Assembly (NCBI GenBank): GCA_036253495.1
Contig: GCA_036253495.1_4125.1
Length of the DNA: 64,000 bases
Direction: 5' to 3' (one strand)
DNA from: a phage
The position numbers and the translations under genes were made by a program. The notes under the pieces are model-generated. The model saw only the letters and a list, made by a program, of their open reading frames with translations. It was not told where the DNA came from and searched no databases. How positions within the stretch are numbered: the first letter of the stretch is position 1; the number at the start of each line of letters is the position of its first letter. This document shows positions 9,337-58,671 of this stretch, piece after piece.

Positions 9337-11763
9337 TTAAGCACTGATTGTTACAGTTGCAGTATCAGTTTTATTGCCATTCGCAGTAGTCACTGTAATG
9401 ACTACAGTACCTTCTTCTAGAGCAGTTACTAATCCATCATCACTAATAGATACTTTAGTAGGTTCATCTGCACTATAAGTTACTGATTTGTTAGTTGCGT
9501 TAGCTGGAAGAACTTCTGGAACTAGTTGAACTGTTTTAGTACCTGATAGTGAAAGATCAGTGGCTTTAGGTGTTAAACCAACGCTGGATACTGGTACTGG
9601 AATATTAACAGTTACAGCACATTTTGCAGTTTTTGCACCATCAGTAGTTTTTACAGTGATATCAGCAGTACCGTTTGCAACAGCAGTGATTAAACCACTT
9701 GCACTAACAGTTGCGACCCCAGCAGCAGAAGTACTATAAGTTACTGCTTTGTTAGTTGCATTAGCTGGTAGTACAGTTGGTGTTAGTTGTTGAGTTGCAC
9801 CAACAGATGTTAAAGTTGCTGTTGTTGGAGAAACAGAAACACTAGCTACAGGAACTGGGATTGACACAGTAATGACACCTTGACCTGTTTTACCACTTCC
9901 ATCAGCGGCAGTTGCGATAATGTTTGCAGTACCGTTAGTTAACGCAGTTACAACACCAGTACTAGCATCAACTTTCGCTACAGCAGGTGCACTAGAAGAC
10001 CATGTTACAGCTTTATTAGTTGCGTTAGCTGGAAGAACTTCAGCAGCCATTGCTTGAGTTGCGTTAACAGCAGTCAATGTTTTAGTTGCTGGTGTAACAT
10101 TAATAGTTGTTACTGGAACTGGAATTGCTACAGTTACTGCACAAACCGCAGTTTTTGCACCATCAGCGGTTGTTACGGTGATGTTAGCAGTGCCATTTGC
10201 TACAGCAGTTATCAATCCTGAAGTGCTAACAGTTGCTACACCCGCATTAGAAGTACTATAAGTTACTGCTTTATTGGTTGCATTAGTTGGTGCAACCGAT
10301 GGTGTTAGTTGTTGTGTTGCACCAACAGATCTTAAAGTTGCTGTTGTTGGAGAAACAGAAACACCAGTTACTGGTACTGGAATATTAACAGTTACAGCAC
10401 AAACTTTACTAAAGCCACCATCAGCAGTAGTAGCCGTGATATTAGCAGTGCCATTCGCTACCGCAGTGATTAAACCACTTGTACTAACGGTTGCAACACC
10501 AGCAGCAGAAGTTGCGTATGTTACTGCTTTGTTACGAGCATTAGCTGGTAGAACAGTTGCAGTTAATTGCTGTGTTGCACCAACAGAAGTTAATGAAGCG
10601 GTTGCAGGTGTTAGGTTAATACCAGTTACTGGGATCGTCACATCAATAATTGATTGTGCGGTTTTTTCACCATCAATAGTTGTTACGGTAATAGTGGCAG
10701 TACCATTATTAACAGAAGTTACTAAACCGTCATCATCAACTTCTGCTACTGTAGGTGCAGAAGATTCATAACGAACTTCCTGATTTGATGCAGTTCTTGG
10801 TAGTACCGTTGCTGTTAATGGTTCATTTGCACCAATAGTAGTGAATGTATATGTTTCAGGTGTTAACGTAACACCAGTTACTGCTGTTTGAACTTTAATA
10901 GAAGAAGTATCAGTAAATGAACCATCTTCAGATGTTGCAGTAATAGTAACATCACCATTGGATACACCTGTTACCAACCCAGAATCTTTATCAACTGTTG
11001 CAACGGATGGAGCAGATGAAGTCCATATAACTTTCTTGTCTGTTGCTGAGGCCGGAGTAACTTCAGCTAACAATTGTTGAGTTGACCCAACGTTTACAGT
11101 TGCAGATTTAGGAGAAACGGTAACACCAGTAACACCAGTACTGACAACGATAGAACACACATCTGTGAAATCACCATCGTGAGTTGTTACGGTTACATCA
11201 GCATTGCCATTTGCAAGTGCAGTTGCTAGACCTGTTTGAGCATCAACTTCAACGATTGTAGGAGCAGATGAAGAGTAGGTTACTGCCTTGTCTTTTGCAT
11301 TAGATGGAACTACTTGGGCTGATAGTTGTTTTGTTGCACCAACTTTAAGAGATGCATCTTTGGGTGTAATTACAACACCAGTTACGGGGATATCAGCATT
11401 AACATAATCGCGTTTTACGATACGACCATTATTTAATTTAATAACACGACCCATATAAAGCATAGTATACCCCATGCTAATACCATCATCAACATAGATC
11501 ATGAATGAATTGTCTTGAACCATATTAATTGCGTCTGCTGGTTCAACAGAATTTGGAATGTCGATACCACGAGTATCATACCAACGCATGGAAACTTTGT
11601 AATAGATATCACCATTATCATTGATGAGATCATACACGTTACCGGAACGTTGACGGTTAATATATAAAGTTTCCGTTAACACCTTACCATCGATTTTAGC
11701 GACAGAAACTTTAATACCACCAATACCAAAAGGCAATTTACCTTCACTAGATATTGCTTTCAT
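9337..11763 (-). CDS. Ig-like (Big_2-type) repeat protein with paralog N-terminal domain
   Basis: 808 aa; N-terminal ~130 aa paralogous domain followed by at least 9 tandem ~88-aa repeats (VTGV..P....L.VG.T.QL...V.P.NAT.K.V.Y.SS...VATV...GL.TAV..G.A.IT..T.DG). Confidence 0.7.
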   Translation of the reverse strand: MKAISSEGKLPFGIGGIKVSVAKIDGKVLTETLYINRQRSGNVYDLINDNGDIYYKVSMRWYDTRGIDIPNSVEPADAINMVQDNSFMIYVDDGISMGYTMLYMGRVIKLNNGRIVKRDYVNADIPVTGVVITPKDASLKVGATKQLSAQVVPSNAKDKAVTYSSSAPTIVEVDAQTGLATALANGNADVTVTTHDGDFTDVCSIVVSTGVTGVTVSPKSATVNVGSTQQLLAEVTPASATDKKVIWTSSAPSVATVDKDSGLVTGVSNGDVTITATSEDGSFTDTSSIKVQTAVTGVTLTPETYTFTTIGANEPLTATVLPRTASNQEVRYESSAPTVAEVDDDGLVTSVNNGTATITVTTIDGEKTAQSIIDVTIPVTGINLTPATASLTSVGATQQLTATVLPANARNKAVTYATSAAGVATVSTSGLITAVANGTANITATTADGGFSKVCAVTVNIPVPVTGVSVSPTTATLRSVGATQQLTPSVAPTNATNKAVTYSTSNAGVATVSTSGLITAVANGTANITVTTADGAKTAVCAVTVAIPVPVTTINVTPATKTLTAVNATQAMAAEVLPANATNKAVTWSSSAPAVAKVDASTGVVTALTNGTANIIATAADGSGKTGQGVITVSIPVPVASVSVSPTTATLTSVGATQQLTPTVLPANATNKAVTYSTSAAGVATVSASGLITAVANGTADITVKTTDGAKTAKCAVTVNIPVPVSSVGLTPKATDLSLSGTKTVQLVPEVLPANATNKSVTYSADEPTKVSISDDGLVTALEEGTVVITVTTANGNKTDTATVTISA
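9400..10780 (-). repeat. tandem ~261-264 bp DNA repeats encoding Ig-like domains
   Basis: Near-identical segments such as GTTACTGCTTTGTTAGTTGCATTAGCTGGTAG recur at about 9478, 9738, 10003, 10261, 10520. Confidence 0.65.
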
Positions 11764-11829
11764 ATACTTTCCTTTATAAATTGTATTGTAGTGTTATATT
11801 ATTTATATTATACCAAAAGTATTTTAGGA

Positions 11830-16463: not shown

Positions 16464-17903
16464 ATGAAAAAATACACAATTGACACAAACGTACTACTAT
16501 CCGATCCAAATGCAACCGTAGCATTTGATGGGGCAGCAGTGATTCTACCATTCACTGTTCTTGAAGAACTTGATTCAATCAAGAGCCGTAATGTTGACGT
16601 ATCACGTGATGCACGTTTCGCAATCCGTAACATCGATGCAATTCTGAAAGATGCTACTCATGAAGAAATCAGCAGTACTGGTGTTAATATTGCCAATATC
16701 CACAAAAATATGGATGCATCCAGTAAGCTATTCGTTATGACGAATGAAGAAGCTGAAGCACTTATTCGTATGGGCGGCAGTGAAGATAAAGTAGAAACTC
16801 TACTTAAAAGTACTGTACCAGATGACAAAATCATTCTAGTGGCTTTGGCATCACAATCAGTACTGGTAACTCGCGACATTAACATGCGTATCAAAGCAAT
16901 GAGCTACGGTGTTGAGGTACAAGATTACCGTCATGACGTTGCAATCGAAGATAGTGAGTTGATTCATATTGGTCAGCACCACCTTGATATTGATTTCTGG
17001 AAAACATTCAGTGAAGTTAATAATGCTGAAATTAAATCCCAACAAGAAGGTCGCCGTCTATATCACTATATTCCAACCGCATTGATTCAAGATGTTCTAC
17101 CAGATAATCTATGTATTGGTGATTATCTATATGATAATGCTGATGTACTATTCGTATACGAAGGTCAATCTGCTATCGAAGAAGAAGACGGTTCACTAAC
17201 ACCTGAAGATATTTTGGTATTCCAGGATATTGGTCAAAGTATCGCTCTTCGTGCTAAAGTTTGGGATATTAAAGCAAAGAATATTCAACAGGCACTAGCA
17301 ATTAACAGTATTCTTGACCCTGATGTACATTTGACAGTACTACTCGGTTCAGCAGGTACTGGTAAAACATTGATTACTGTTGCTACTTCACTCGAATTAG
17401 TGCTGGAAAAACGTAAATACGATCGTATAATCTTCTCCAAAACACAAGATTCTCAATTTGAAGAAATTGGTTTCTTGCCTGGTTCTGAAGCTGAAAAGGT
17501 CATCCCATTCTGTGGGGCTGCAATCGATGCTCTAGAGTATCTACACAAAGATGATGCTAACCCACAAGGTAGCATTGAAGAGATTCTCAAACGTAACGTA
17601 ATGCAGTTTAAAGCATTGAACTTTATTCGTGGTCGTTCTTTCACTAATACAATTCTAATTGTAGATGAATTCCAGAACATCACCCCTGCACAGGCAAAGA
17701 CTATTCTTACCCGTGCTGGACAAAACTGTAAGGTTATCATTATGGGTAACTTAGCACAGATTGATAGTAAGTTTATTAGTCCAGTGAACAGTGGTTTGAC
17801 ATATGTAACTGAAAAATTCAAAGATTGGGAAGGTTGCCGTATCATTGAATTGGAAGGTGTAGTACGTTCTGCACTCGCTGAGTTTGCAGAAGAAAATATG
17901 TAA
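16464..17903 (+). CDS. phoH: PIN-domain / PhoH-like ATPase fusion
   Basis: N-terminal PIN-like segment KKYTIDTNVLL; Walker A LLGSAGTGKTL; ATG at 16464 preferred over track start 16440. Confidence 0.78.
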   Translation: MKKYTIDTNVLLSDPNATVAFDGAAVILPFTVLEELDSIKSRNVDVSRDARFAIRNIDAILKDATHEEISSTGVNIANIHKNMDASSKLFVMTNEEAEALIRMGGSEDKVETLLKSTVPDDKIILVALASQSVLVTRDINMRIKAMSYGVEVQDYRHDVAIEDSELIHIGQHHLDIDFWKTFSEVNNAEIKSQQEGRRLYHYIPTALIQDVLPDNLCIGDYLYDNADVLFVYEGQSAIEEEDGSLTPEDILVFQDIGQSIALRAKVWDIKAKNIQQALAINSILDPDVHLTVLLGSAGTGKTLITVATSLELVLEKRKYDRIIFSKTQDSQFEEIGFLPGSEAEKVIPFCGAAIDALEYLHKDDANPQGSIEEILKRNVMQFKALNFIRGRSFTNTILIVDEFQNITPAQAKTILTRAGQNCKVIIMGNLAQIDSKFISPVNSGLTYVTEKFKDWEGCRIIELEGVVRSALAEFAEENM

Positions 17904-23554: not shown

Positions 23555-24496
23555 ATGCAAATAGATAAATTATATACGGACGTAACTAACTTCCTCAACC
23601 AGAGTAACGCTGATTTAACAAATGAAAATGCAAATAAAGACGCTAAATGTGTTAATACACATCGTGATTTATTGGCAGGTATTCTTTCTAAACATTATTC
23701 CCAAGATGTGATTCCTGATGAATTGATGAAGTGGCATAATGAAGGTTACGGTCATATTCATGATTTAGACTATTACATTAGCCCATTAACAAACTGTTGT
23801 TTAGTTAATTATCCTGATATGCTTGCTAATGGCTTCATGATTGGTTGTGCCAAGATTGAAGAACCAAAAAGCTTTGGGGTAGCTTGTACAGTACTAACAC
23901 AGATTGTTCAGGCTGTGGCAAGTTCACAGTACGGTGGTCAGTCGTTGGCTCACATTGACACTGGCCTTGCACCATATGTACAAAAGTCATGGGATAAACT
24001 TCTAGAAAAACAAAAGAAATACAATCTTAGTACTGAATTCATCGAAGATGAGTTGCGTAAGGAAGTTTATGACGGTTGTCAAACAATTCTATATCAAACA
24101 AACTCAATGATCAGTACTAATGGTCAGGCTGCGTTCATTTCTTTGAGTTTAGGATTAGGTACATCTAAATTTGAAAAACTAATCACTGAACAATATTTGA
24201 AAGTACATGAAAATGGACTAGGTAAAGATAAGATTACTCCAGTATTTCCTAAAGTAATATTCTTTCTTCAGGATGGAATTAATATGAATACCAATGATAC
24301 TAACTATGATCTTAAACAGTTAGCTATGCGTTGTGCATCAAAAAGAATCTATCCAGACTTTGTTTCTGTACCATTGAACCATAAAGTAACTGGAAGTACC
24401 AGTACTGCTGTTACTCCTATGGGATGCAGAAGCTTCTTAGGTAAATGGGAAGATGAAAATGGCAACGAACAGTACAATGGCCGTTTCAATTTGGGT
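23555..24496 (+). CDS. nrdD: anaerobic ribonucleoside-triphosphate reductase NrdD, exon 1
   Basis: N-terminal NrdD-like region ending ...PMGCRSFLGKWEDENGNEQYNGRFNLG, matching the E. coli NrdD segment PMGCRSFLG...NLG recalled from memory; exon end placed at T24496. Confidence 0.72.
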
Positions 24497-25666
24497 AGAC
24501 ATACATGCCCCATTGCTGAGTGATCAGTAATTGCAAACACGTTAACATGCTGGAACCCCCTAAAGCCATAAACACTACAACGCAATCTTAATAGATAAAC
24601 GTGAATGTTACGAGAGTAGAAAAAAGTTTTATGGATATATAATAAGTTGTAAATCATATTATATGTACAATGGGAAATCAGCAGCCAAGCCATCATTAAT
24701 ATAATGGTGGAAGGTTCAACGAGTATAATACGTGACTCTAATATTAAAACTTCCATAAATAATATTTTATGGAGGATATATAATGAGAAAAGGAAGTATA
24801 TATAAAATAGAATGTATAGTAACTAATAAAGTTTATATTGGACAAACCGTTTTATATCCACCGATGAAAAGATGGGTGGAACACTGCCAAAACAATGATG
24901 AAAAATCATGTATTAGTAAAGCTATTAAAAAATTTGGTTTTGAAAATTTCACATTTCAAATTTTAAAAACTAATATTGATTTAAATAATCTTAATGATGA
25001 AGAAATAAAATATATTGAAATTTATGATAGTTATAAGAATGGTTACAACTCAACATTAGGTGGTCACCAAACCTTTAATGGAAGTAAAATAACTGAACTT
25101 GATGCTATAAAAATTATAGAATATATTAAATCATATAAAGATCTTTCATTCGTAGAAATAGCAAAAACTTTAAATGTTCCATACGGCTGTGTAAGTGATA
25201 TAAATTGTGGCGAAACTTGGTATCAAATAAATGAAACATACCCTATTAGAGATAACAAAAGAAATAAGATTGAAGATAATATAGATTCAATTTATGAGTT
25301 ATTGAGAAATGGTGTTTCTAGTATAGAAATTGCAAAAATATATAATGTTTCAAATGTCACCATTTGTAACGTTAATAATGGAACAATCTATCGAAACGAA
25401 TCAGTTGAATACCCAATTTTTAAACCACAAAATTCATCAAAACGACATTCTATTGAAATAGTTTCTAAGATTATTGATATGTTAATTAATACAGATAAAA
25501 ATTATTCTGAAATTGCAAAATGTTTAAATGTAGGAAGAAAAACTGTTGCAAATATCAATAACGGTTCTGGATATAAAGAACTATCAAATGAACTTGGTTA
25601 TATATCATTTCCTCTTCGTTAGAGTATGGTGTACTCTAATCCTTCATGAAAGTGAAGGTACAAATG
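24497..25666 (+). mobile_element. group I intron interrupting nrdD, carrying a GIY-YIG homing endonuclease ORF
   Basis: Exon ends in U; P-like ATGCTGGAA (24546), Q-like AATCAGCAGCC (24675), R-like GTTCAACGAG (24713); GACTCTAA (24735) pairs with TTAGAGT (25621) as P7; P9-like hairpin CCTTCA-TGAAAG-TGAAGG; terminal G at 25666; spliced product reads GRFNLG|VVSINLP in frame. Confidence 0.65.
24783..25622 (+). CDS. GIY-YIG homing endonuclease (intron-encoded)
   Basis: N-terminal IYKIECIVTNKVYIGQT (GIY-x10-YIG); SD GGAGG upstream; located inside nrdD intron. Confidence 0.8.
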   Translation: MRKGSIYKIECIVTNKVYIGQTVLYPPMKRWVEHCQNNDEKSCISKAIKKFGFENFTFQILKTNIDLNNLNDEEIKYIEIYDSYKNGYNSTLGGHQTFNGSKITELDAIKIIEYIKSYKDLSFVEIAKTLNVPYGCVSDINCGETWYQINETYPIRDNKRNKIEDNIDSIYELLRNGVSSIEIAKIYNVSNVTICNVNNGTIYRNESVEYPIFKPQNSSKRHSIEIVSKIIDMLINTDKNYSEIAKCLNVGRKTVANINNGSGYKELSNELGYISFPLR

Positions 25667-26530
25667 GTTGTCTCAATCAACCTACCGCTAATTGCTCTTG
25701 AAAGCACTACTGATGGTGATTTCTTTGATAAGATAGATGAGCATATGAACATTGCATACAGAGCACAGATGAACCGTGTAGAGCGTTTAAAAGGTACTAA
25801 GGCTAAACAGAACCCGATTCTGTTCATGGAAGGTGCTCTTGCACGTCTTGATGCAGAAGAAACTATTGACAAACTCTTCTACGATGGTTATGCTAGTATT
25901 AGTATTGGTTATGTAGGATTAGTTGAATGTTCAGAGATTTTGACTGGTTCAATCAGTAAAGAGTTCTGTATGTCAGTACTGAATTATATGAAAGTCAAAT
26001 GCGATGAGTTCAAAAAAGAGAGTAACATAGCTTTTAGTCTATATGGAACCCCAGCAGAGTCACTTTGCTACAAATTTGCACGTTGCATCGAATCTAAGTA
26101 CCCTTCAGTACTAAAACGTGATTACATCACAAATTCCTTCCATCAACCAGTATGGGTAGAAAGTTCACCATTTGATAAGTGGAGTTACGAAGAGGGCTTT
26201 GCTTACCTCAGCAATGGAGGAAACATCAGTTATGTGGAATCACCCAACCTAAGTAACAATATTCAAGCACTTGAGACTTTAGTCAATTACGCTTACACAA
26301 AGATTCCATATTTTGGCATCAACCAGCCAATTGACCAGTGTTTCGAGTGTGGGTATAAAGGTGAGTTCAGTGTAGATAAACACGGTTTTCATTGTCCAGT
26401 ATGTGATAATCGCAATGAGAAGACAATCTCAGTGATTCGTCGTGTTTCTGGATATTTGGGGAACCCATCGTCTCGTGGATTCAACAAAGGCAAACAACAA
26501 GAATGTTGTGAGCGTATACAACACAAATAA
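25667..26530 (+). CDS. nrdD: anaerobic ribonucleoside-triphosphate reductase NrdD, exon 2
   Basis: VVSINLPLIALE...; C-terminal Zn ribbon CFECG...CPVCDN and glycyl-radical motif RRVSGYLG. Confidence 0.75.
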   Translation, partial: VVSINLPLIALESTTDGDFFDKIDEHMNIAYRAQMNRVERLKGTKAKQNPILFMEGALARLDAEETIDKLFYDGYASISIGYVGLVECSEILTGSISKEFCMSVLNYMKVKCDEFKKESNIAFSLYGTPAESLCYKFARCIESKYPSVLKRDYITNSFHQPVWVESSPFDKWSYEEGFAYLSNGGNISYVESPNLSNNIQALETLVNYAYTKIPYFGINQPIDQCFECGYKGEFSVDKHGFHCPVCDNRNEKTISVIRRVSGYLGNPSSRGFNKGKQQECCERIQHK

Positions 26531-26871: not shown

Positions 26872-27322
26872 TTTAGTCAATGGAGAGGGAGTTAGATGCT
26901 CCCTTTTTGTTTCAGGGTGTAGCCACGGATGTGAAGAATGCTTCAACGAAAAAGCATGGGATTATCGCAGTGGGGAAGTATTCAGTACTGAAACAGTTGA
27001 AATCATCCTGAATGAACTTAACAAGCCATATGTACAAGGATTATCCCTTTTAGGTGGTGATCCATTGATGCCAAAGAATATCAGTACTGTTATTGAGTTA
27101 TGTAAAGTAGTAAAAGAAAAATATCCAAATAAAGATATTTGGTGCTGGAGTGGTTATACTTTAGAGGAAATAATAAATAATCATGCCTCCGCAATACTAG
27201 AGTACATTGATGTATTAGTTGATGGTAAATTTATTCTTGAAGAAAAGAATTTAGAATTACCATTTAGAGGCTCTAATAATCAACGTATTCTTCGTAAAGG
27301 AGTAGATTATGCGTTATCTTGA
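26843..27322 (+). CDS. nrdG: anaerobic ribonucleotide reductase activating protein NrdG
   Basis: Radical-SAM activase N-terminus DDLVNGEGVRCSLFVSGCSHGCEECFN; overlaps upstream gene by 29 nt. Confidence 0.75.
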   Translation: MNYQTIIKDDLVNGEGVRCSLFVSGCSHGCEECFNEKAWDYRSGEVFSTETVEIILNELNKPYVQGLSLLGGDPLMPKNISTVIELCKVVKEKYPNKDIWCWSGYTLEEIINNHASAILEYIDVLVDGKFILEEKNLELPFRGSNNQRILRKGVDYALS

Positions 27323-27467
27323 TATTATTTCTGAAAAGATACAGAAACGTGGAAATGAGTGGGTTGTTACTGACCACACAGGGAAGAAAGTTCTCGGTCG
27401 TCACCCAACCAGAAAAGAAGCACTTAAACAATTAAGAGCAGTTGAATTTTCTAAACACGGCGGTTAA
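27309..27467 (+). CDS. small hypothetical protein (52 aa)
   Basis: ATG at 27309 after GGAG; not in ORF track (<60 aa); followed by terminator. Confidence 0.25.
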   Translation: MRYLDIISEKIQKRGNEWVVTDHTGKKVLGRHPTRKEALKQLRAVEFSKHGG

Positions 27468-27471
27468 TATG

Positions 27472-27500
27472 AAGAAGCACCCTTTGGGTGCTTTTTTTAT
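27472..27500 (+). terminator. intrinsic terminator (GAAGCACCC-TTT-GGGTGCTT then T7)
   Basis: Strong hairpin plus U-tract at end of early block. Confidence 0.65.
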
Positions 27501-27505
27501 ACTAT

Positions 27506-27513
27506 TATAAATA
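27506..27513 (+). promoter_or_regulatory. late-promoter-like TATAAATA box
   Basis: Exact TATAAATA about 30 nt upstream of tail-fibre gene start 27545. Confidence 0.5.
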
Positions 27514-27544
27514 CACTATGGATATCTAGATAAAAGGGATATAT

Positions 27545-30244
27545 ATGGCAAAGAAAATATATGGTGGCATTGATGTTACACATAATGTAACAGTCAAAGG
27601 TAAGAGAAGTGTTCAGAGCATCAATGATAACGTATTTGATGAAAATGGCAATCTCACAATAGATGCATATACACAAGATGATATGCTGGAAATGGTTGGT
27701 ATGTTACCCATTTCTCGTTATGGTACACAAAACTATCTACCTGCTGGTGTCAATGGTACAACAGTTGGTTCTTCAGAAAATGCTAGTTCCAGAAATACAA
27801 AATTATTTTTGGAAGATGATAACACTTTAGTAATGTTACGTCCGGGTACTAATGGAAGTTCACAGGGGATTTATTATAGTTATATGACCCAGGCGGTTGG
27901 TACAACAAATACAAGTCGTATGGTTAATACTACTCGTGCATATAAACCAAATTATTTTGGTGCTGGGTATGCAGTTTATTTGTATCCAAGCAGTGATGAT
28001 ATTACTTGTGGTTTGGTGAGAACTGAAAATTCTGATGGTACATATATTGATAGAGTTTTTGTTTCAGTCAATAATGGTACTATGAATGATACAATGCACA
28101 CTGGTATTATTCTATCAGACCATACAGCCGTACAACCTTTTGGTGCAATACAATTTGTTATTCGTGCTGAAGATGGTTCATTATACTTTTTCAGTTTAGA
28201 TACACCAAGCAATACTCTTAAAATATCCGTTACTAAAGTTACTTTTAGTCCAAGTAATAACCCAGGTGGTGGTACTTATAGTGTTACTAGAATTACTGGT
28301 TGGGCCACAAGAACTTTTTATAATGCAATGGTATATGATGACAATATTGTTCCAACTATGAAAATAAATTCAACAAATACCAATGATAATCCATACGTTT
28401 TAATTCCAAGTGGTATTATTGGGTTTGGTGTTTATATGACAGATCCAGATTTATATGTTGCACAGAAATCTGGTACATCCGAATTCAGATTTAGATTATG
28501 TGGTGATATGTGGATGACAAATGGACGATATGACACACGCCCACAACATGGTTTTAGTATGACTTTTGATGTTGTGACAAAACAATGTAAATTAGATAAT
28601 ATGTTAACGACTACACCAGTTGCTGTTAATGACACGGGTTCAAGTATGAATGTAACGGGTCAATGCATAACAAAAGATCCATTTTATCTTCACGCGGGTC
28701 TGCGTAATATTTTTAGTAATTATTGCTATGTACCATCAACTGGTGATGCATTTTGTTCATTCTCACCAAACCTCGCAGAAGCATTGAACTTATCATATGC
28801 GAAATATCCACCACAGTCATTGTTTAATTTAATGAATGTTAGAAGTGTATCAGCAACTAATTTTATTAATGGTGTAGTATCACCAAGATTTGGTTCAGCA
28901 GTTGGTTCATACCAAGTAGGTGTAGAGTTATTACCAAATAACAGTACTAAACAATATTCAAGACGTTCTGGTGATGGTCGTTTTTATCCATCCTATGCTG
29001 TACATAAAGCTACACCGAACTTCACATTTAAGTCTCTAGACTATGGTACTGTTCCTGGTTATGAACCAACACCAGACCGAGCGTTTATAACTACACCAGA
29101 ATCTAGAATTTTTATAAGTTCAATTTCTGGATCAACGGTAACGACTAATGGTGGTGTTTTGGTGGCTGATAATAGAACATCAACTCCTATTAGTTTTGAT
29201 TATAAAGGTAATGTACTGAATAATGGTACAATCAGTATGTCTCAAGATATAATGAATGCTATTCGAAATTCCGAATTTGCTAAAGTTGCTAGTTCATGGA
29301 ATATATCACCAGAATCAATAAAAACATTATCTGTATTTGTTCCACAACAAACTGATATTCCTGTTTTTGGTGTTCTTGCAGCATCTACTACAGCCCGTGG
29401 TCTATATATTCGAGTTGTTGAATTGAATGTCAATACAAGAACTGGTGATATTACAACGTGGTCGTTCAAACGTTTAGTACATGAAAGTGTTCAAGCTGGG
29501 GATTACAAAACAGATACCGCATATCATCTTGATAGTGGAAGTATTGGTATTACTATATATGATGCGGGTTCTTTCTACTTCATTGGTGGTGGTATTCCTG
29601 GTTTCTTTAATACAGTTGGTAATACAAACTCTCCATTTTTCCGTGCTACAGTGGATAAAGCGACAGCCCAATTTAATAATTTCCATATAGCTGGTGGACG
29701 TCCGATCTATGCATTAGATGGTCAACCATTCGCTTTACCTAACATTGGGTTTGGTATTCTTCAAAGTATAGATAATAATAACAAAACAATTTTTAGAACA
29801 TATGGTACAACATTAGCGGATTATAATGCATGGACTGATAAAGGAAATCCAGTTATATGTCTTGTTTCCCAAGATGTTGCTCAAGGTTTTATTATATACT
29901 TCACCGAAGAGACACCAGTACTGATATCCGGTAAACACTATACATTACCAATATCAAATATAGATTTAACAACTGTGAAAGCAAATCCTGCCAATACTAC
30001 ATTTTATGTGTATATTAAATTAGTACAGGGTATTGCAAACTATCATATATCAACAACTGAATTAGCTGAAACTCATTCAATATTCTGGATTGGTACAGTG
30101 AAAACTGATAATTTACAAATAACCGAAATTAATATAGAAAAACGTTCTCGTTTAGACCTGTTTGGTTCATCATTCAACGCTGCCGGAAGTTCCTTCCCAG
30201 TAAGTTCTGGGTTCCCTTCAAGTTCTGGTAATGTGAATTGGTAA
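27545..30244 (+). CDS. tail fibre-like protein (899 aa)
   Basis: Large late ORF; shares N-terminal motif (D.M...LP.SR.G.Q.YLP...NGT) with 30856-33597 and C-terminal ~130-aa module with both neighbours. Confidence 0.55.
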   Translation: MAKKIYGGIDVTHNVTVKGKRSVQSINDNVFDENGNLTIDAYTQDDMLEMVGMLPISRYGTQNYLPAGVNGTTVGSSENASSRNTKLFLEDDNTLVMLRPGTNGSSQGIYYSYMTQAVGTTNTSRMVNTTRAYKPNYFGAGYAVYLYPSSDDITCGLVRTENSDGTYIDRVFVSVNNGTMNDTMHTGIILSDHTAVQPFGAIQFVIRAEDGSLYFFSLDTPSNTLKISVTKVTFSPSNNPGGGTYSVTRITGWATRTFYNAMVYDDNIVPTMKINSTNTNDNPYVLIPSGIIGFGVYMTDPDLYVAQKSGTSEFRFRLCGDMWMTNGRYDTRPQHGFSMTFDVVTKQCKLDNMLTTTPVAVNDTGSSMNVTGQCITKDPFYLHAGLRNIFSNYCYVPSTGDAFCSFSPNLAEALNLSYAKYPPQSLFNLMNVRSVSATNFINGVVSPRFGSAVGSYQVGVELLPNNSTKQYSRRSGDGRFYPSYAVHKATPNFTFKSLDYGTVPGYEPTPDRAFITTPESRIFISSISGSTVTTNGGVLVADNRTSTPISFDYKGNVLNNGTISMSQDIMNAIRNSEFAKVASSWNISPESIKTLSVFVPQQTDIPVFGVLAASTTARGLYIRVVELNVNTRTGDITTWSFKRLVHESVQAGDYKTDTAYHLDSGSIGITIYDAGSFYFIGGGIPGFFNTVGNTNSPFFRATVDKATAQFNNFHIAGGRPIYALDGQPFALPNIGFGILQSIDNNNKTIFRTYGTTLADYNAWTDKGNPVICLVSQDVAQGFIIYFTEETPVLISGKHYTLPISNIDLTTVKANPANTTFYVYIKLVQGIANYHISTTELAETHSIFWIGTVKTDNLQITEINIEKRSRLDLFGSSFNAAGSSFPVSSGFPSSSGNVNW

Positions 30245-30254
30245 TGGAGATAAT

Positions 30255-30845
30255 ATGGCTTATAAATTTAGATCTGATGTGGAAGCGTATGCTTCCGTTA
30301 AATCACAAGGAAAAAATACTGGGACCACGATAACTGATCGTTCTGGTAATGTGTATCAAGCTGATGCTAATGGGAATGTTGATGTACCACTCATGAGTAC
30401 AGATGATGTGAATTACATTACCAGTTCCTTTCCGTTATCACAATTTGGTTCACTTTACAGTACTGAACCATTGGGTATTTCTGCTGCTGGTTTCAATTTA
30501 ACTTTCAGCAAAGAATTACCGTTATTCATGGCGGGAGCGGCGTATACCCTCCCAGCTAAAACAATAACGGACCCAGGAGTTACTGGAACTAATATTGAAA
30601 CACATTATGTATATGTTATATTAGATGTTGGGGTAGCTGACTACCTCATTTCTAAAACTCAACGCCCTGAAAGTAGTGTTAATATGTACATAGGACAACT
30701 GACAGTTTTCCCAGATGGCATTACAGGGGTCAGTATAAATAAAGTGTCAAGATTTGACGACTTCAGAGTAAGTGCTACAAAAATTGGTTCAGCTATCCCT
30801 ATCAGTTCTGGTACACCAGATGTGAATAGTGGGACAGAATGGTAA
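30255..30845 (+). CDS. tail fibre-associated protein sharing C-terminal module
   Basis: 196 aa; C-terminal KVSRF...IPISSGTPDVNSGTEW parallels termini of the flanking large proteins. Confidence 0.5.
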   Translation: MAYKFRSDVEAYASVKSQGKNTGTTITDRSGNVYQADANGNVDVPLMSTDDVNYITSSFPLSQFGSLYSTEPLGISAAGFNLTFSKELPLFMAGAAYTLPAKTITDPGVTGTNIETHYVYVILDVGVADYLISKTQRPESSVNMYIGQLTVFPDGITGVSINKVSRFDDFRVSATKIGSAIPISSGTPDVNSGTEW

Positions 30846-30855
30846 AGGAATATAT

Positions 30856-33597
30856 ATGGCTTCGAGACGAATTATAGGAAACGCAGAAATACTAGGGAAT
30901 TTGAAAATTAATGGAAAGTATGCATTACGTTCCTTTAATGGATTCCCTGCTGATTCTGCTGGTAATATCACTTACCAATATTATGACAAAGCGGAAGTGG
31001 ATCAAATGTTTGATATGCTTCCTGTTTCAAGGGTAGGTGATCAAGATTACCTACCGATGAGTATTAACGGTACATTTGAAGGTGCTTCTTCCTTTTCATT
31101 TGCAAAAATAATGCAACCTTGTATCATTGAAAATGATGGTACTGGTGTAATTTTACGTGCAGGTACAAATGGAAGTTCTTATGGTTTCTATTATGCTTAT
31201 ATAAAAAATATAAGAGATATAGAAACATTAACTCAAGATAATATAATTACAACCAACACGATGTATAGACCTTCTGTGCTACCAAGTACTGATTACATTT
31301 ATGAATTTTATGGGTCAAATGCATATGAATTACTATTTTGGGAATCGACTGATAGAGCATCATACTACCTTACATTAACAAATGAAACATTAAATGAATC
31401 TGCTCATAAACACTGTAGAATTCCAAAAACAGCAATAACAAATAAACCAATCTATGCACACATCGTAAATGATTCAGTTTATATATGGTGTATGGATTCA
31501 AGTGTATTGAGTAGTGTTCGCGGGTGTGCATTTATCATATACACAGTACCTTTAACTGCATTTAATACTGGTTCAGTTTCGACAGTAACACAGATTAGTG
31601 GTTATTCAGGAAGAACTATAAGAAATGTAACATACACTGCATCTAATAATATTCGTGTTTATGATAGTTATTCAGTGTTGGGTTCAGGTGGTGATGCACT
31701 AATAGCATATGATAATGGTGTTTCCAGAATAGATTATTGGGAAAATAACGCATTTAATACCCAAGCAGTTCTTAGCCCTGATGGTACAAAAATAAGAGTA
31801 GCGATATATCCAGGGTTTCGTGTCTTTACCGCAACAAAAACATCTAGTGTATATGCACTTGGTATCAGCTTTACATATGATATCAGTACTAAAACAATGA
31901 CACTTGACGGTTCTGAACGTGGTCCAATCAGAGTATCAGCTAATACATCAACTGGTAGTATAACAGTGAGTAACCCGTTTTCAATCAATATGGAAAACTT
32001 TACAGGGTTTTATGATGGTGCACTTGGTAACTATGGTTCAATCTGTCAAACTTCTGATGGTTTTGTTTTCACTACCAAAGCAAGATGGTCATCCATGCCG
32101 ACCTATGCAGTACAAACATACAAAGTTTCTGGTACACCTTATGATAGTTGGGTTGCTAAAACACGTACTGGTAGTAATTTAAAACGTGTAGAAGTAATGC
32201 CAGTTTATGGCTCCCCTGTCGGTGAAAACTTAATAGGTGTTCGTTTCGTAGATAAACGTAAGATACTTGTTGCATGTTCTGGTACTGCTGATGGAATTTC
32301 TTATGGTTATGATAGTACAGTTTTTACTGAAATAGGTGAGAATCCAACTTATAGTTATAAAAACTTGGAACAAAATACCACAATGAATGGTTTTGCACCA
32401 TCAGGTAATAGACACTATTTAAGTACTGATTACAAATATGCAGGTATGGTAACATTGGTTGATGCCAATGGAAATGTCAGCACTTATGGATCTTCTTTAA
32501 TAGAAGGTATCGATAAACCAGCTTATGGAAAATTCGACCCTGTTACAATGGACTTTAACAATGATAGATATGAAATTTCAGGAACTACATTATCAGGTAT
32601 AGGTTATAATGCCGTTGCTAAAGCTGGATTGACTGGAATAACTGAACATAAAACTGTTTTTTATTATGTACCTGATACTACATATTCTAAATCTATTGCA
32701 GTCACTTCTGCACTAAACGGTACTACCAACGTGTGTTATATTATTTTTTCCGAAATATCATGTAGTGCACTGGGTACAAGTGGTACTATAATTTTACGTG
32801 GTATTAGTGTTGATACAGCAAGATATACATCAATCACGAATACATTCCAAATTTCACCAAATGAAATGATCAAACGTTGGGCTGGTATGACTGTTGCTAA
32901 GTTTAGTGGTTTTAACTACTTAGGTGTGAACATTTTATATGGCATTGATACCCCAGGTTGGACTCGTTATCCTAACATGATTGCTAAAGTGAAAAATGGT
33001 ATTATTTCAAGTCAACGATATATGGAAACAACTTATATTTCAAACGCACAATTTGATATAGGTACAATTCCAGGGATTGGGTTTGGATATTACCAAATGA
33101 ACAAAAACGATTATCAAACTAAATCAGTTTTTGCTGTATGTGGTACTACTGAAGCAGATATGGATAAACTAATATCTGGTAATGAAACGATATCACAGTA
33201 CTTAGTTGTTGCTTCACAGGATGTGGCACAAGGGTTCAACGTGTACTTTTCACAAGAAGTACCAGTTTTCTTGGGTGGAAAGTTTGCAAAGATACCACCG
33301 ACTATGATAGACTTATCTACCATAAGTACTACACCAGATAATTCAACATTCTACATATATGCGGTTATGGATAGAGGTACATCTACAGCTTCGTATCAGA
33401 TATCACTATATCAATTATCAGAAACTATGACATCAACCTACATTGGTAAGATAGTAACTGATGCTAATGGTATTGCATCAATCGAGTCTGAAAAAGTGTC
33501 CAGATTCTTGCTATACCGCCCAAGTACCTACAATCGTGGTTCTGCTATCCCAGCTAGTTCTGGGTTACCATCACAATCTGGTACTCGTTGGAGTTAA
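30856..33597 (+). CDS. tail fibre-like protein (about 913 aa)
   Basis: ATG at 30856 after SD AAGGAA (track start 30829 lies inside previous gene); shared N- and C-terminal modules with 27545-30244. Confidence 0.55.
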   Translation: MASRRIIGNAEILGNLKINGKYALRSFNGFPADSAGNITYQYYDKAEVDQMFDMLPVSRVGDQDYLPMSINGTFEGASSFSFAKIMQPCIIENDGTGVILRAGTNGSSYGFYYAYIKNIRDIETLTQDNIITTNTMYRPSVLPSTDYIYEFYGSNAYELLFWESTDRASYYLTLTNETLNESAHKHCRIPKTAITNKPIYAHIVNDSVYIWCMDSSVLSSVRGCAFIIYTVPLTAFNTGSVSTVTQISGYSGRTIRNVTYTASNNIRVYDSYSVLGSGGDALIAYDNGVSRIDYWENNAFNTQAVLSPDGTKIRVAIYPGFRVFTATKTSSVYALGISFTYDISTKTMTLDGSERGPIRVSANTSTGSITVSNPFSINMENFTGFYDGALGNYGSICQTSDGFVFTTKARWSSMPTYAVQTYKVSGTPYDSWVAKTRTGSNLKRVEVMPVYGSPVGENLIGVRFVDKRKILVACSGTADGISYGYDSTVFTEIGENPTYSYKNLEQNTTMNGFAPSGNRHYLSTDYKYAGMVTLVDANGNVSTYGSSLIEGIDKPAYGKFDPVTMDFNNDRYEISGTTLSGIGYNAVAKAGLTGITEHKTVFYYVPDTTYSKSIAVTSALNGTTNVCYIIFSEISCSALGTSGTIILRGISVDTARYTSITNTFQISPNEMIKRWAGMTVAKFSGFNYLGVNILYGIDTPGWTRYPNMIAKVKNGIISSQRYMETTYISNAQFDIGTIPGIGFGYYQMNKNDYQTKSVFAVCGTTEADMDKLISGNETISQYLVVASQDVAQGFNVYFSQEVPVFLGGKFAKIPPTMIDLSTISTTPDNSTFYIYAVMDRGTSTASYQISLYQLSETMTSTYIGKIVTDANGIASIESEKVSRFLLYRPSTYNRGSAIPASSGLPSQSGTRWS

Positions 33598-33602
33598 AAA
33601 AA

Positions 33603-33634
33603 TTAAGCCTGTCTATTGACAGGCTTTTCTTTTA
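33603..33634 (+). terminator. intrinsic terminator (GCCTGTC-TATT-GACAGGC then TTTTCTTTT)
   Basis: Perfect hairpin after tail-fibre block. Confidence 0.6.
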
Positions 33635-33666
33635 TCCGTATAATGCTAAAAAACTAGGAGGAAACT

Positions 33667-34227
33667 ATGGTACAATCACGTTTTAGACCACCGCTGTCAC
33701 CAGCACAGTTACAACGTTTAAAAGAAAAAGAGCAGCACTTTCAGAATACCCTAGTAGTTCGTTTGCTATGCAAAAGTGTAACTCTTAAAGATTTTGTGAA
33801 AACCGATAATGAACGTAAATCACTTATCGAACTTAAGTACAAGTTAAGTAAGCATAAACTATATGGATTACTAGCAGAATACACCCAAAATCCATTCAGT
33901 GATCGTTGGTCTATGGTTCAAAAAAAACTGTGGGGTGGTGATGAAGAATTCACACTACGTGATTTAAAAAATGCAATCATGTTTAAGGTCGATTATACAC
34001 CAGCAGGGATTGAACACAGAACCGAAGAAACTATCATTCAATCAAGAGATTTATCATGTGTTGTTTCTTCAAACTTCGGTGTTCATTATGATATGCTTGA
34101 TGACGATGAGTTAATGATCCTGTTCCATGTGATTATTGGTGCTGAAGATATTAAAGAAAAGTTATCACAAATTGAAGAAGAACAGCGTAAATTCAAAATC
34201 CAAAAGAGAATAACTGATTTATATTAA
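33667..34227 (+). CDS. hypothetical protein, paralog family member 1 of 3
   Basis: 186 aa; shares TD-(N/E)-(E/D)-R motif region and coiled-coil-like C-terminus with next two genes. Confidence 0.45.
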   Translation: MVQSRFRPPLSPAQLQRLKEKEQHFQNTLVVRLLCKSVTLKDFVKTDNERKSLIELKYKLSKHKLYGLLAEYTQNPFSDRWSMVQKKLWGGDEEFTLRDLKNAIMFKVDYTPAGIEHRTEETIIQSRDLSCVVSSNFGVHYDMLDDDELMILFHVIIGAEDIKEKLSQIEEEQRKFKIQKRITDLY

Positions 34228-34236
34228 GAGGTTACT

Positions 34237-34737
34237 ATGTTTTTCAAAAAGAAAAATAATGATCACAAAAGAGAAAATGTAGAGTGGTGTACATTAATTC
34301 TTCCAGTACTGATGAAAAGCTATTCTTTAAAAGAAATTATCCGTACTGATGAAGATCGTAGAACTATACTTAAAATTAAAGAAATGTTAAGTTCTCATTC
34401 TCTAATGAAACTAATCACAGACCTAGTTAAAGAACCATACGGTGAACGTTGGTTATATGAACCAGTATTCATATATGGTAATCATATCAACCGTGTAAAA
34501 TTGTTTGATACCGAAACTAAGGTTGATTTTAATGCAGTAACATATTCATCTAAAGATTATGATGAAAAACATACATTTGTTTATATTAACGGAGATGCGA
34601 ATATTCTACCTAAACATGAACAAATGTTTTTGTTTCATTTACTCGTTGCACTTCGTGAGCTTGAAACAAAGTACAAGAAGTTAGAATACGAGCAGCATAA
34701 ACTTAATGAATTTAATAAATTAAAAGGATTATACTAA
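34237..34737 (+). CDS. hypothetical protein, paralog family member 2 of 3
   Basis: 166 aa; paralogous to 33667-34227. Confidence 0.45.
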   Translation: MFFKKKNNDHKRENVEWCTLILPVLMKSYSLKEIIRTDEDRRTILKIKEMLSSHSLMKLITDLVKEPYGERWLYEPVFIYGNHINRVKLFDTETKVDFNAVTYSSKDYDEKHTFVYINGDANILPKHEQMFLFHLLVALRELETKYKKLEYEQHKLNEFNKLKGLY

Positions 34738-35243
34738 TGTTCTTCGGTAAACATAAAGTAAAAGATGATGGTATTCTTCAGTACTTAGTTGCGTTGATTT
34801 TAAACAAAAGTACTTTATTAGTACCTAATATTAAATCAGACAAAGATCGCAGAGAAATTATTCAAAACAAATATCTTCTTTCAAAATGTGATCCTGTTAT
34901 CTATGCATTTTGTAAGTACTGTTCAAAAAACTTGTTCAGTATTCATGTAGATTTTGAAAGACAAGAAAGCAGCACACGAAATTCTTGTTTTAAAGTGTAT
35001 ATGATTAATGATTTAAATCGTGGGAATCGAGGGTTCATGTTCTGGATGGACGGACGTGATATACGTGTGCGTATTAAAATGTCAGTTGGGTGGAAGGATT
35101 TTTCAACTTCTGTATCTGATTTTCTTGTACTTCACGCACTATATAACAGTATTACTAACGTGAAAGATATCGACAAGAAAATTCAGGAACAAAAAGAATT
35201 GGATGATGCAAAGAACGAATACTTACAACATTACAGGAGTTAA
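34737..35243 (+). CDS. hypothetical protein, paralog family member 3 of 3 (divergent)
   Basis: 168 aa; same size and N-terminal MFF-K start as member 2. Confidence 0.4.
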   Translation: MFFGKHKVKDDGILQYLVALILNKSTLLVPNIKSDKDRREIIQNKYLLSKCDPVIYAFCKYCSKNLFSIHVDFERQESSTRNSCFKVYMINDLNRGNRGFMFWMDGRDIRVRIKMSVGWKDFSTSVSDFLVLHALYNSITNVKDIDKKIQEQKELDDAKNEYLQHYRS

Positions 35244-58626: not shown

Positions 58627-58634
58627 TATAAATA
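58627..58634 (+). promoter_or_regulatory. late-promoter-like TATAAATA box
   Basis: Exact TATAAATA about 38 nt upstream of tube-like gene start 58672. Confidence 0.5.
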
Positions 58635-58671
58635 ATATAAAGATCTCATTTCCTAATAGGAGAATTAATTA

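What the first reader, a model, noticed from the sequence alone, without database searches (positions are those of the whole stretch)
27545..33597. Three tail-fibre-like genes share a C-terminal module of about 130 aa ending SSG-x-P-x3-SG-x2-W
All three end with a similar module: KVSRF or KRSRL, then P-x-SSG-x-P-x3-SG-x-x-W as the last residues (FPVSSGFPSSSGNVNW, IPISSGTPDVNSGTEW, IPASSGLPSQSGTRWS), preceded by a conserved Y-x-YV...IS segment. The two large proteins also share an N-terminal motif (LP-x-SR-x-G-x-Q-x-YLP). The 196-aa protein is essentially the module alone. This looks like a shared tip, trimerisation or chaperone domain combined with different shafts, suggesting several receptor specificities or modular exchange.
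Basis: seen in the sequence. Interest (0 to 1): 0.45.

Follow-up and report, generated by a model that had tools for sequence, protein, structure and literature searches.

The report
Three-paralog receptor-binding set of jumbo phages
Three neighbouring genes of this giant E. coli phage are ancient copies of one virion protein that all keep the same short head end and about 120-residue tail-end docking domain, and one copy has lost everything else, which suggests the three chains assemble together into the phage's host-recognition device.

Summary
The window is an Asteriusvirus-type jumbo coliphage, 97% identical to phage A4.

- **Shared parts.** A (899 aa), B (196 aa) and C (913 aa) share a C-terminal module of about 120 aa (36-40% identity, E 3e-18 and 2e-21). 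They also share an N-terminal segment of about 65 aa.
- **A and C.** They are homologous over their full length (E 6e-56), so there are no "different shafts".
- **B.** It is the N-segment plus the module, with about 700 central residues missing.
- **Triad.** Jumbo phages carry such genes as a tandem triad. Modules cluster by gene position rather than by phage, and each position can be full-length or headless: L-L-L, L-S-L, S-L-L, S-S-L.
- **Virion and expression.** Orthologues of A and C were detected, at low peptide counts, in virion preparations. A T4-type late promoter motif precedes A.
- **Variability.** The cassette is a hypervariable island.

Best reading: a constant anchoring and trimerisation part carrying one to three variable heads, possibly as an A:B:C heterotrimer. 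That assembly is inferred, not shown. The family is uncharacterised.

The parts
27475..27493 (+). Terminator-like hairpin (AAGCACCC-TTT-GGGTGCTT followed by a T run) that closes the upstream nrdG unit
   Evidence: The scan listed the minus-strand reading. The T run on the + strand is seen directly in the sequence.
27506..27513 (+). TATAAATA, a T4-type late-promoter motif 32 nt upstream of the ATG of A
   Evidence: only 5 copies in 64 kb (11 expected); the three intergenic copies all precede virion-protein genes at 32-38 nt. PMC5259590 describes ATAAATA as the predicted late motif of Rak2-like phages.
27545..30244 (+). Gene A, position-1 paralogue, 899 aa, full-length
   Evidence: phrog_3573, E 5e-196. 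Orthologues were detected in virion preparations: phAPEC6 gp323c and JP4_233.
27545..27742 (+). N-terminal segment of A (aa 1-66), including LPISRYGTQNYLP at 27701-27739
29879..30241 (+). C-terminal module of A (aa 779-899), with the position-1 signature KRSRLD..GSSFPVSSGFPSSSGNVNW
30255..30845 (+). Gene B, position-2 paralogue, 196 aa, headless: N-segment (30255-30452) joined directly to the module (30483-30842)
   Evidence: (phrog_26864, E 2e-43). It is orthologous to the full-length middle genes of GAP32 and BF. dN/dS is 0.36.
30734..30741 (+). Second TATAAATA, inside B and 115 nt upstream of C. It could be an internal late promoter; this was not tested.
30856..33597 (+). Gene C, position-3 paralogue, 913 aa, full-length (the ORF is open from GTG 30829)
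   Evidence: (phrog_3573, E 6e-207). The orthologue JP4_235 was detected in the virion preparation.
31018..31056 (+). N-terminal motif of C, LPVSRVGDQDYLP (aa 55-67)
   Evidence: P56, S58, R59, G61, D64, Y65, L66 and P67 are invariant or nearly invariant.
31120..32160 (+). Predicted beta-propeller of C (about aa 89-435)
32170..33180 (+). Two further all-beta regions of C (about aa 439-775). They are missing from a 568-aa position-3 relative.
33226..33594 (+). C-terminal module of C (aa 791-913), with the position-3 signature KVSRF..YRPS..RGSAIPASSGLPSQSGTRWS
33605..33626 (+). Terminator-like hairpin 8 nt after the stop of C, closing the A-B-C unit

Best explanation
A, B and C are the three members of an ancient, conserved triad of virion host-recognition proteins of jumbo myophages.

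**Constant part.** Every member keeps an N-terminal segment of about 65 aa (LPxS[RQH]xG motif). It also keeps a C-terminal module of about 120 aa. The module is a beta-sandwich with the fold of the "shoulder" domain of lactococcal phage receptor-binding proteins and TssK, followed by a conserved Gly/Ser/Pro-rich tail of about 30 aa ending in W.

**Inferred role of the constant part.** It oligomerises, probably as a trimer, and docks the protein onto the tail or baseplate.

**Variable part.** About 700 residues lie between the two constant pieces. They form a lectin- or sialidase-like beta-propeller plus beta-sandwich domains. This is the host-binding head, and it is dispensable in some members.

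**B.** It is the position-2 member that has lost its head.

**Favoured assembly.** All three positions are always retained, each with its own conserved signature. I therefore favour co-assembly through the constant part into one complex, most simply an A:B:C heterotrimer carrying two heads in this phage.

**Expression and evolution.** The cassette is transcribed late as one unit. It evolves fast and is exchanged between related phages, as expected of a host-range determinant.

**Shown:** homology, triad conservation, position-wise orthology, predicted folds, detection in virion preparations.
**Inferred:** trimerisation, docking site, heterotrimer, ligand.
For: **Homology**
- The family core runs from the LPxSRxG motif to the terminal W. 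It matches 566 clusters (50% identity) in the exhaustive search. Among the 150 listed, 148 of 850-1200 aa were aligned, and most end exactly at the module.
- Across those 148 representatives, conservation peaks at profile positions 61-120 and 781-910. The centre is most variable.

**Predicted folds**
- The docking role of that domain is described in PMC7291167 and PMC6300606.
- The C model (pLDDT 81.6) contains a beta-propeller.

**Triad**
- Seven of nine phage-record lineages examined, and two metagenomic contigs, carry three adjacent module genes. The architectures are L-L-L, L-S-L, S-L-L, S-L-M, S-S-L and M'-L-L.
- Modules cluster by gene position. Bootstrap support is 88 for position 1, 57 for position 2 and 99 for position 3.
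- N-segments carry position-specific features.

**Selection**
- B is under purifying selection (dN/dS 0.36).

**Virion**
- phAPEC6 gp323c gave 4 peptides.
- JP4_233 and JP4_235 gave 2 peptides each, at similar abundance.

**Expression**
- A TATAAATA motif and flanking terminator-like hairpins bracket the unit.

**Synteny**
- In EL, RAY and Proteus phage 10 the genes sit next to baseplate genes.

**Hypervariability**
- Against phAPEC6, A, B and C are 52, 41 and 50% identical. The flanking nrdD, nrdG and the nucleotidyltransferase are 95, 81 and 87%.
- dS of the cassette is 0.13-0.35, against 1.05 for nrdG.
Against: - No experiment or solved structure exists for any family member. Profile searches of PDB sequences find nothing.
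- The B model is only moderately confident (mean pLDDT 63.8). Only residues 72-165 are well predicted, and the fold assignment rests on that core.
- In known shoulder domains the domain is N-terminal and precedes the head. Here it follows the head.
- No Pfam family reaches threshold.
- The mass-spectrometry evidence is weak: 2-4 peptides per protein. The phAPEC6 list also contains clearly non-structural enzymes.
- The B orthologue was not detected in JP4.
- Position-2 monophyly has weak bootstrap support.
- PhiEaH1 shows only two module genes, and EL only two detectable ones.
- The heterotrimer could not be tested, because no multimer prediction was available. Three separate homotrimers would explain most of the data.
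Confidence: 0.55

Rival explanations
1. There are three independent homotrimeric receptor-binding proteins, each docked at its own site on the baseplate through its own version of the module. B forms a headless homotrimer that only fills or caps its site, or serves as an adaptor for another fibre.
For: - All solved shoulder-domain proteins (p2 and 1358 receptor-binding proteins, TssK) are homotrimers.
- Position-specific signatures would equally fit three distinct docking sites.
- Phage 812 carries several different receptor-binding proteins on one baseplate (PMC13433997 abstract).
Against: - A headless stub at a private site would be expected to be lost sometimes. Yet three genes persist in most lineages, even where two of them are headless, as in XaC1.
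- The orthologues of A and C have similar abundance in JP4. This is weak evidence.
Confidence: 0.25
2. The proteins decorate another part of the virion, namely the capsid, collar or sheath rings, where phAPEC6 shows unassigned "hairy" fibres and elongated decoration proteins. On this reading the module anchors them there rather than on the baseplate.
For: - phAPEC6 has unassigned fibre-anchoring and decoration densities on capsid hexamers, collar and sheath (PMC7247149).
- In Asteriusviruses the genes lie away from the baseplate genes, between nrdG and a nucleotidyltransferase.
Against: - Very low peptide counts argue against a protein present on hundreds of capsid hexamers.
- The proteins are compact beta domains, not hair-like filaments.
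- Structural neighbours of the module are baseplate-docked proteins.
- In chimalliviruses the genes adjoin baseplate genes.
Confidence: 0.1
3. The module is the distal end of the protein. It would be either a conserved receptor-binding tip or a C-terminal intramolecular chaperone that is needed for folding and then removed. This corresponds to the first reader's "tip or chaperone".
For: - Conserved C-terminal domains shared by otherwise different phage fibres are classically intramolecular chaperones (established knowledge of endosialidase and T5 fibre chaperone domains).
- The conserved Gly/Ser/Pro tail is unstructured in the monomer models.
Against: - No Pfam family reaches threshold.
- The module is a beta-sandwich whose neighbours are shoulder domains, not chaperone domains.
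- A free-standing 196-aa protein made of N-segment plus module has no fibre to fold.
- Some relatives carry 150-590 further residues after the module. That is inconsistent with a terminal tip or a cleaved end.
Confidence: 0.06
4. The proteins are not virion components. They would be, for example, late-expressed cell-surface or polysaccharide-modifying enzymes, and their detection by mass spectrometry would be carry-over.
For: - Peptide counts are low, and non-structural enzymes appear in the same lists.
- The genes lie among nucleotide-metabolism genes.
- The CBB virion list shows no obvious orthologue, but the gene numbers were not mapped.
Against: - Two independent studies detected the orthologues.
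- A late-promoter motif is shared with structural genes.
- The folds resemble receptor-binding proteins.
- The genes are syntenic with baseplate genes in chimalliviruses.
Confidence: 0.04

Closest known systems
Shoulder domain of lactococcal siphophage receptor-binding proteins (p2 ORF18, phage 1358), SPP1 gp22 and the N-terminal domain of T6SS TssK
   Same: - It belongs to a host-adhesion or baseplate protein.
- It is the conserved part, joined to a variable binding head.
- It is expected to work the same way: a trimeric socket that receives a loop of a baseplate protein.
   Different: - There is no detectable sequence similarity.
- The domain lies at the C-terminal end, after the head, rather than at the N-terminus.
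- It is followed by a conserved tail of about 30 aa ending in W.
- It occurs in three position-specific paralogous versions per genome.
- It is found in jumbo myophages.
phiKZ gp131-gp135 fibre paralogues
   Same: - They belong to a jumbo phage and form a tandem array of paralogues sharing one terminal region.
- The array includes a very short member (gp132, 110 aa).
- They carry a beta-propeller head.
- Several paralogues co-assemble into one hetero-oligomeric baseplate fibre (PMC13250141).
   Different: - No sequence relationship was found. Family and module profiles find nothing in phiKZ 120-210 kb.
- In phiKZ the shared part is N-terminal and the propeller is C-terminal and seven-bladed.
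- The phiKZ complex is described as a hetero-hexamer.
Staphylococcal phage phi11 Gp45 and 80alpha receptor-binding proteins
   Same: They are baseplate receptor-binding proteins with a beta-propeller platform. They are among the few phage hits of the full-length C model (Foldseek E 2.4e-4 to 4e-3).
   Different: - Global superposition is poor (TM below 0.2).
- They anchor through an N-terminal stem.
- They are homotrimers of a single gene.
Six-bladed fucose-binding lectins (AAL, AofleA, SapL1) and bacterial or phage sialidases
   Different: Sequence identity is 6-12%. No active-site or sugar-site residues were checked, so function cannot be transferred.

Membership tests
Jumbo-phage family phrog_3573 / phrog_26864 / phrog_7449 (function unknown) | Significant match to the family profile over its full length | tested here: met
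   A 5.4e-196 and C 6e-207 to phrog_3573; B 2.3e-43 to phrog_26864; 566 related cluster representatives.
Receptor-binding-protein shoulder / TssK N-terminal domain | Beta-sandwich fold superposable on the p2 ORF18 shoulder, SPP1 gp22 and TssK | tested here: met
   [not shown]
Receptor-binding-protein shoulder / TssK N-terminal domain | Sequence-profile membership (Pfam or PDB sequences) | tested here: not met
   no Pfam family reaches threshold; no PDB sequence match.
Receptor-binding-protein shoulder / TssK N-terminal domain | N-terminal position, followed by neck and head | tested here: not met
   The module is C-terminal in A, B and C and follows the head.
Receptor-binding-protein shoulder / TssK N-terminal domain | Forms a trimer whose central cavity receives a loop of a baseplate protein | not testable with these tools
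   No multimer prediction and no coordinates were available.
phiKZ gp131 paralogue fibre family | Sequence similarity to gp131-gp135 | tested here: not met
   no hit with E below 0.1 in phiKZ 120-210 kb, which contains gp131-135.
phiKZ gp131 paralogue fibre family | Tandem paralogues sharing one terminal region, including a mini-paralogue, with a beta-propeller head | tested here: met
   This is an analogy of organisation only.
C-terminal intramolecular chaperone domains of phage fibres and spikes | Match to a chaperone domain profile | tested here: not met
   no Pfam family of any kind reaches threshold for the three proteins or for 22 module sequences.
Virion structural protein | Detected in purified particles | tested here: inconclusive
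   Orthologues were detected: phAPEC6 gp323c with 4 peptides, and JP4_233 and JP4_235 with 2 peptides each. Counts are low, the lists include non-structural proteins, and the B orthologue was not detected.
T4-type late gene of Rak2-like phages | (T)ATAAATA motif 30-40 nt upstream of the start codon | tested here: met
   the motif is described in PMC5259590. Transcription itself was not measured.

The most novel reading that the evidence does not exclude
The triad forms an obligate heterotrimeric adhesion complex. Its trimerising and docking part is built from one copy each of three ancient paralogues: the N-segment plus a shoulder-like module, which may be one discontinuous domain into which the head is inserted. 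The number of receptor-binding heads per complex has been tuned in evolution between three and one by clean deletion of the head from individual chains. That would be a previously undescribed design principle for phage receptor-binding proteins. It would also identify the host-range determinants of several jumbo-phage groups: Asteriusvirus, Mimasvirus, Eneladusvirus, Agricanvirus and EL-like phages.
Probability: 0.3. Interest if true: 0.7.

Novelty: new variant of a known kind. Interest (0 to 1): 0.5.

Why it matters
Jumbo coliphages of this group are being developed for therapy, yet their receptor-binding proteins are largely unassigned. In the records examined these three genes are annotated mostly as hypothetical, occasionally as minor tail, structural or membrane protein. 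In phAPEC6 two of them are not annotated at all.

- **Candidate host-range cassette.** The work gives a concrete candidate that can be swapped as a unit. The cassette is already exchanged between related phages in nature.
- **Structural hypothesis.** The most conserved part now has a testable fold assignment.
- **Testable prediction.** A, B and C should co-assemble, and B should be required for incorporation of A and C.
- **Link between lineages.** Rak2-like jumbo phages and nucleus-forming chimalliviruses share this structural gene triad.
- **If the heterotrimer is real.** It would be an unusual case of a phage adhesin built from three paralogous chains with a variable number of heads.

Tried and rejected
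1. **Sequence links to known families.** Pfam gave nothing at threshold. There was only a sub-threshold DUF5484 match at A residues 12-38 (E 0.014), plus scattered single-member noise for the module. PDB sequence searches with single proteins and with two profiles found nothing.
2. **Relationship to phiKZ gp131-135.** No sequence match. It is kept only as an analogy.
3. **Downstream paralogues as cognate chaperones.** I considered whether the three small paralogues at 33667-35243 are assembly factors for A, B and C. I rejected this. In ph0011 the A-B-C cassette is 90-94% identical to the window, but the small trio is only 34-38% identical. They do not co-vary, and they have their own consensus sigma-70 promoter.
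4. **Other copies in the window.** There are none. The best extra tblastn hit has E 0.17, and the hit at 16981-17076 (E 0.61) lies inside a PhoH-like gene.
5. **Group I intron between the two nrdD halves.** No Rfam match.
6. **Domain boundaries and contacts.** I could not inspect the contact between N-segment and module, because model coordinates are not exposed. Boundaries come from the secondary-structure strings only.
7. **CBB virion proteome.** I read the list, but the CBB orthologues could not be mapped to gene numbers, so it was not used.
Full report
**Identity of the window.** Region 27000-34500 is 97% identical to Escherichia phage A4 and 92% to phage ph0011. Both are Asteriusvirus jumbo myophages of about 350 kb. 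The three genes follow the anaerobic ribonucleotide reductase genes nrdD and nrdG. They precede three small paralogues and a nucleotidyltransferase.

**Check of the observation.** The ORFs are:
- A: 27545-30244, 899 aa.
- B: 30255-30845, 196 aa.
- C: 913 aa from ATG 30856 to 33597. The mechanical ORF opens at GTG 30829.

All three have a Shine-Dalgarno-like motif 6-8 nt upstream.

The last 120 residues of B align to the ends of A (36% identity, E 3e-18) and C (40%, E 2e-21). All quoted motifs are present. tblastn finds the module nowhere else in the 64 kb.

Two points go beyond the finding:
- A and C are homologous from end to end (26% identity, E 6e-56).
- The first 66 residues of B match the N-termini of A and C (E 6e-5). 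A family profile confirms this for every B-like protein.

So B is the N-segment fused directly to the module, and lacks about 700 central residues.

**The family.**
- PHROGs place A and C in phrog_3573 and B in phrog_26864. Both are of unknown function.
- Pfam gives nothing at threshold.
- An exhaustive profile search finds 566 related clusters (50% identity), 240 of them with E below 1e-30.
- The conserved core runs from the LPxSRxG motif to the terminal W. Most listed proteins end exactly there. A few carry N- or C-terminal extensions.
- Across 148 aligned representatives, conservation peaks at profile positions 61-120 and 781-910. It is lowest in the centre.
- tblastn finds the module in 107 phage records, all read so far being jumbo phages. 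They include Asteriusvirus, GAP32, Serratia BF, Yersinia fHe-Yen9-04, Xanthomonas XaC1, Erwinia Agricanvirus, PhiEaH1, Pseudomonas EL, Proteus phage 10 and a Vibrio phage.

**Predicted structures.**
- *Protein C.* With 22 aligned sequences, the AlphaFold2 model has mean pLDDT 81.6 and pTM 0.77. It is almost entirely beta. Only residues 1-38 and 884-913 have pLDDT below 50.
  - Haloferax virus fibre gp42
  - a phi812 baseplate protein
  - Mtd
- *What the hits share.* p2, 1358, gp22 and TssK have the "shoulder" domain in common. This is a trimeric beta-sandwich that receives a loop of a baseplate protein (the Dit arm, or the TssG loops) and so docks the receptor-binding protein (PMC7291167, PMC6300606).
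- *Limits.* No sequence-level link to these proteins exists. In the present family the domain follows the head instead of preceding it.

**The triad.** Profile searches of neighbouring ORFs show that module genes come in threes. L means about 900 aa. S means about 190 aa, made of N-segment plus module.

| Phage or contig | Architecture |
|---|---|
| GAP32, BF | L-L-L |
| The window and other Asteriusviruses | L-S-L |
| Metagenomic contig L018 | S-L-L |
| 355-kb metagenomic phage (L017) | S-L-M; M is 568 aa and keeps the propeller only |
| XaC1 | S-S-L |
| RAY, Proteus phage 10 | M'-L-L; M' is about 420 aa with an unrelated N-terminal part |
| Vibrio phage pVp-JHP1101 | Three adjacent genes with internal modules |
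| PhiEaH1 | Only two (S-L) |
| EL | Two detectable (gp114, gp115), next to an undetected gp116 |

A neighbour-joining tree of the modules groups them by gene position, not by phage. With the 15 sequences of the Rak2-like group, bootstrap support is 88 for position 1, 57 for position 2 and 99 for position 3.

Each position has its own signature:
- Position 1: KRSRLDVFG..GSSFPVS.
- Position 2: KVSRF..YRPS.TQIGSAFPVS, plus a 5-6-residue insertion and (F/L)PLSQ(Y/F)G in the N-segment.
- Position 3: KVTRFLTYRPS...RGSAIP.S...T-RW plus one residue.

B is therefore the orthologue of the full-length middle genes of GAP32 and BF. Head loss has happened independently at positions 1 and 2, and partly at position 3. 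In the set examined, position 3 always keeps at least the propeller.

B is intact in every Asteriusvirus examined. Its dN/dS is 0.36 against ph0011, compared with 0.17 for A and C.

**Virion association and expression.**
- In phAPEC6, gp323c is the orthologue of A. It was detected in the virion preparation with 4 peptides (PMC7247149).
- The B and C orthologues are intact ORFs that the phAPEC6 record does not annotate. They could probably not have been found.
- In JP4, the orthologues of A (JP4_233) and C (JP4_235) were each detected with 2 peptides at similar abundance. The B orthologue was not among the 49 proteins.
- These counts are low, and both lists contain non-structural proteins. The evidence is supportive, not conclusive.
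- In RAY and Deimos-Minion, gp18 and gp19 were detected, but in crude lysates.
- TATAAATA occurs only five times in the window, against 11 expected. Its three intergenic copies lie 32-38 nt upstream of A, of an Ig-repeat structural gene, and of a putative tail gene.
- The same motif is the predicted late promoter of Rak2-like phages (PMC5259590).
- Terminator-like hairpins bracket the A-B-C unit.
- In EL, RAY and Proteus phage 10 the family genes adjoin baseplate genes.

**Evolutionary behaviour.**
- Against phAPEC6 or JP4, the flanking nrdD, nrdG and nucleotidyltransferase are 95, 81 and 87% identical. A, B and C are 52, 41 and 50%.
- Between the window and A4, differences in A concentrate in residues 150-200 and 300-400, inside the predicted propeller.
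- Against ph0011, the cassette (dS 0.13-0.35) is much closer than nrdG (dS 1.05) or the downstream trio (34-38% identity). The cassette has therefore moved as a unit.

**Interpretation.** The N-segment plus module is the constant part. I infer that it oligomerises and anchors the protein. The central propeller and sandwich domains are the variable host-binding head.

Three position-specific versions persist, even when one or two of them are headless. This points to a requirement for all three chains. I favour co-assembly, most simply as a heterotrimer, but it is not shown. Three homotrimers at three distinct sites are the main alternative.

The closest known organisation is the phiKZ gp131-135 set. 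There, paralogues that include a 110-aa member build a hetero-oligomeric baseplate fibre (PMC13250141). No sequence relationship to it was found.

**Verdict.** This is a real, significant feature. It is an uncharacterised but widespread jumbo-phage family that works like a receptor-binding-protein set with a shoulder-type docking domain. It is not a sequence member of any described family. I rate it a new variant of a known kind, of moderate interest.

Noticed in passing
window 23555-26530: The anaerobic ribonucleotide reductase gene nrdD is split into two ORFs (23555-24523 and 25646-26530) by a 279-aa ORF, read by eye as GIY-YIG-type (24783-25622). In A4, EJP2 and phAPEC6 the two halves are contiguous. 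No group I intron model matched the gap, so this is either an unrecognised intron or a true split gene.
   Followed up: partly
window 33616-35243: Three tandem paralogues of about 170 aa (33667-34227, 34237-34737, 34737-35243; phrog_18641 and phrog_7868, function unknown) lie downstream of C. A perfect sigma-70 consensus promoter (TTGACA-17-TATAAT, 33616-33644) precedes them and overlaps the terminator of C. They are only 33-38% identical to their counterparts in phAPEC6, JP4 and even ph0011. They form a second hypervariable block that varies independently of A-B-C.
   Followed up: partly
window 36886 onward; L001 15953-19367: Synteny with phage A4 ends right after the nucleotidyltransferase gene. 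A4 has a 'putative tail fiber' (209 aa) and a 'tail protein I' (927 aa) there, and phAPEC6 has a tail fibre protein of 105 kDa (gp314c) nearby, downstream of the same gene, detected in the virion preparation. Neither A4 protein has any match in this 64-kb window.
   Followed up: partly
window 9337-11807 (- strand): An 808-aa protein made of about eight Ig-like repeats (phrog_215 and many 'major tail protein' Ig families). It is preceded by TATAAATA 37 nt upstream of its start. It is a candidate surface decoration protein.
   Followed up: no
L003 5001-8334 (phAPEC6, MK817115.1): The orthologues of B (195 aa) and C (ORF of up to 939 aa) are intact in phAPEC6 but are not annotated in the GenBank record, which instead lists a 37-aa ORF inside C. 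The published virion proteome therefore probably could not report them.
   Followed up: yes
window 58627-59355: A TATAAATA motif lies 38 nt upstream of a 227-aa ORF just after the tail sheath gene (55613-58276). The similar JP4 protein JP4_286 was detected in virions. It is probably a tail tube-type protein.
   Followed up: no
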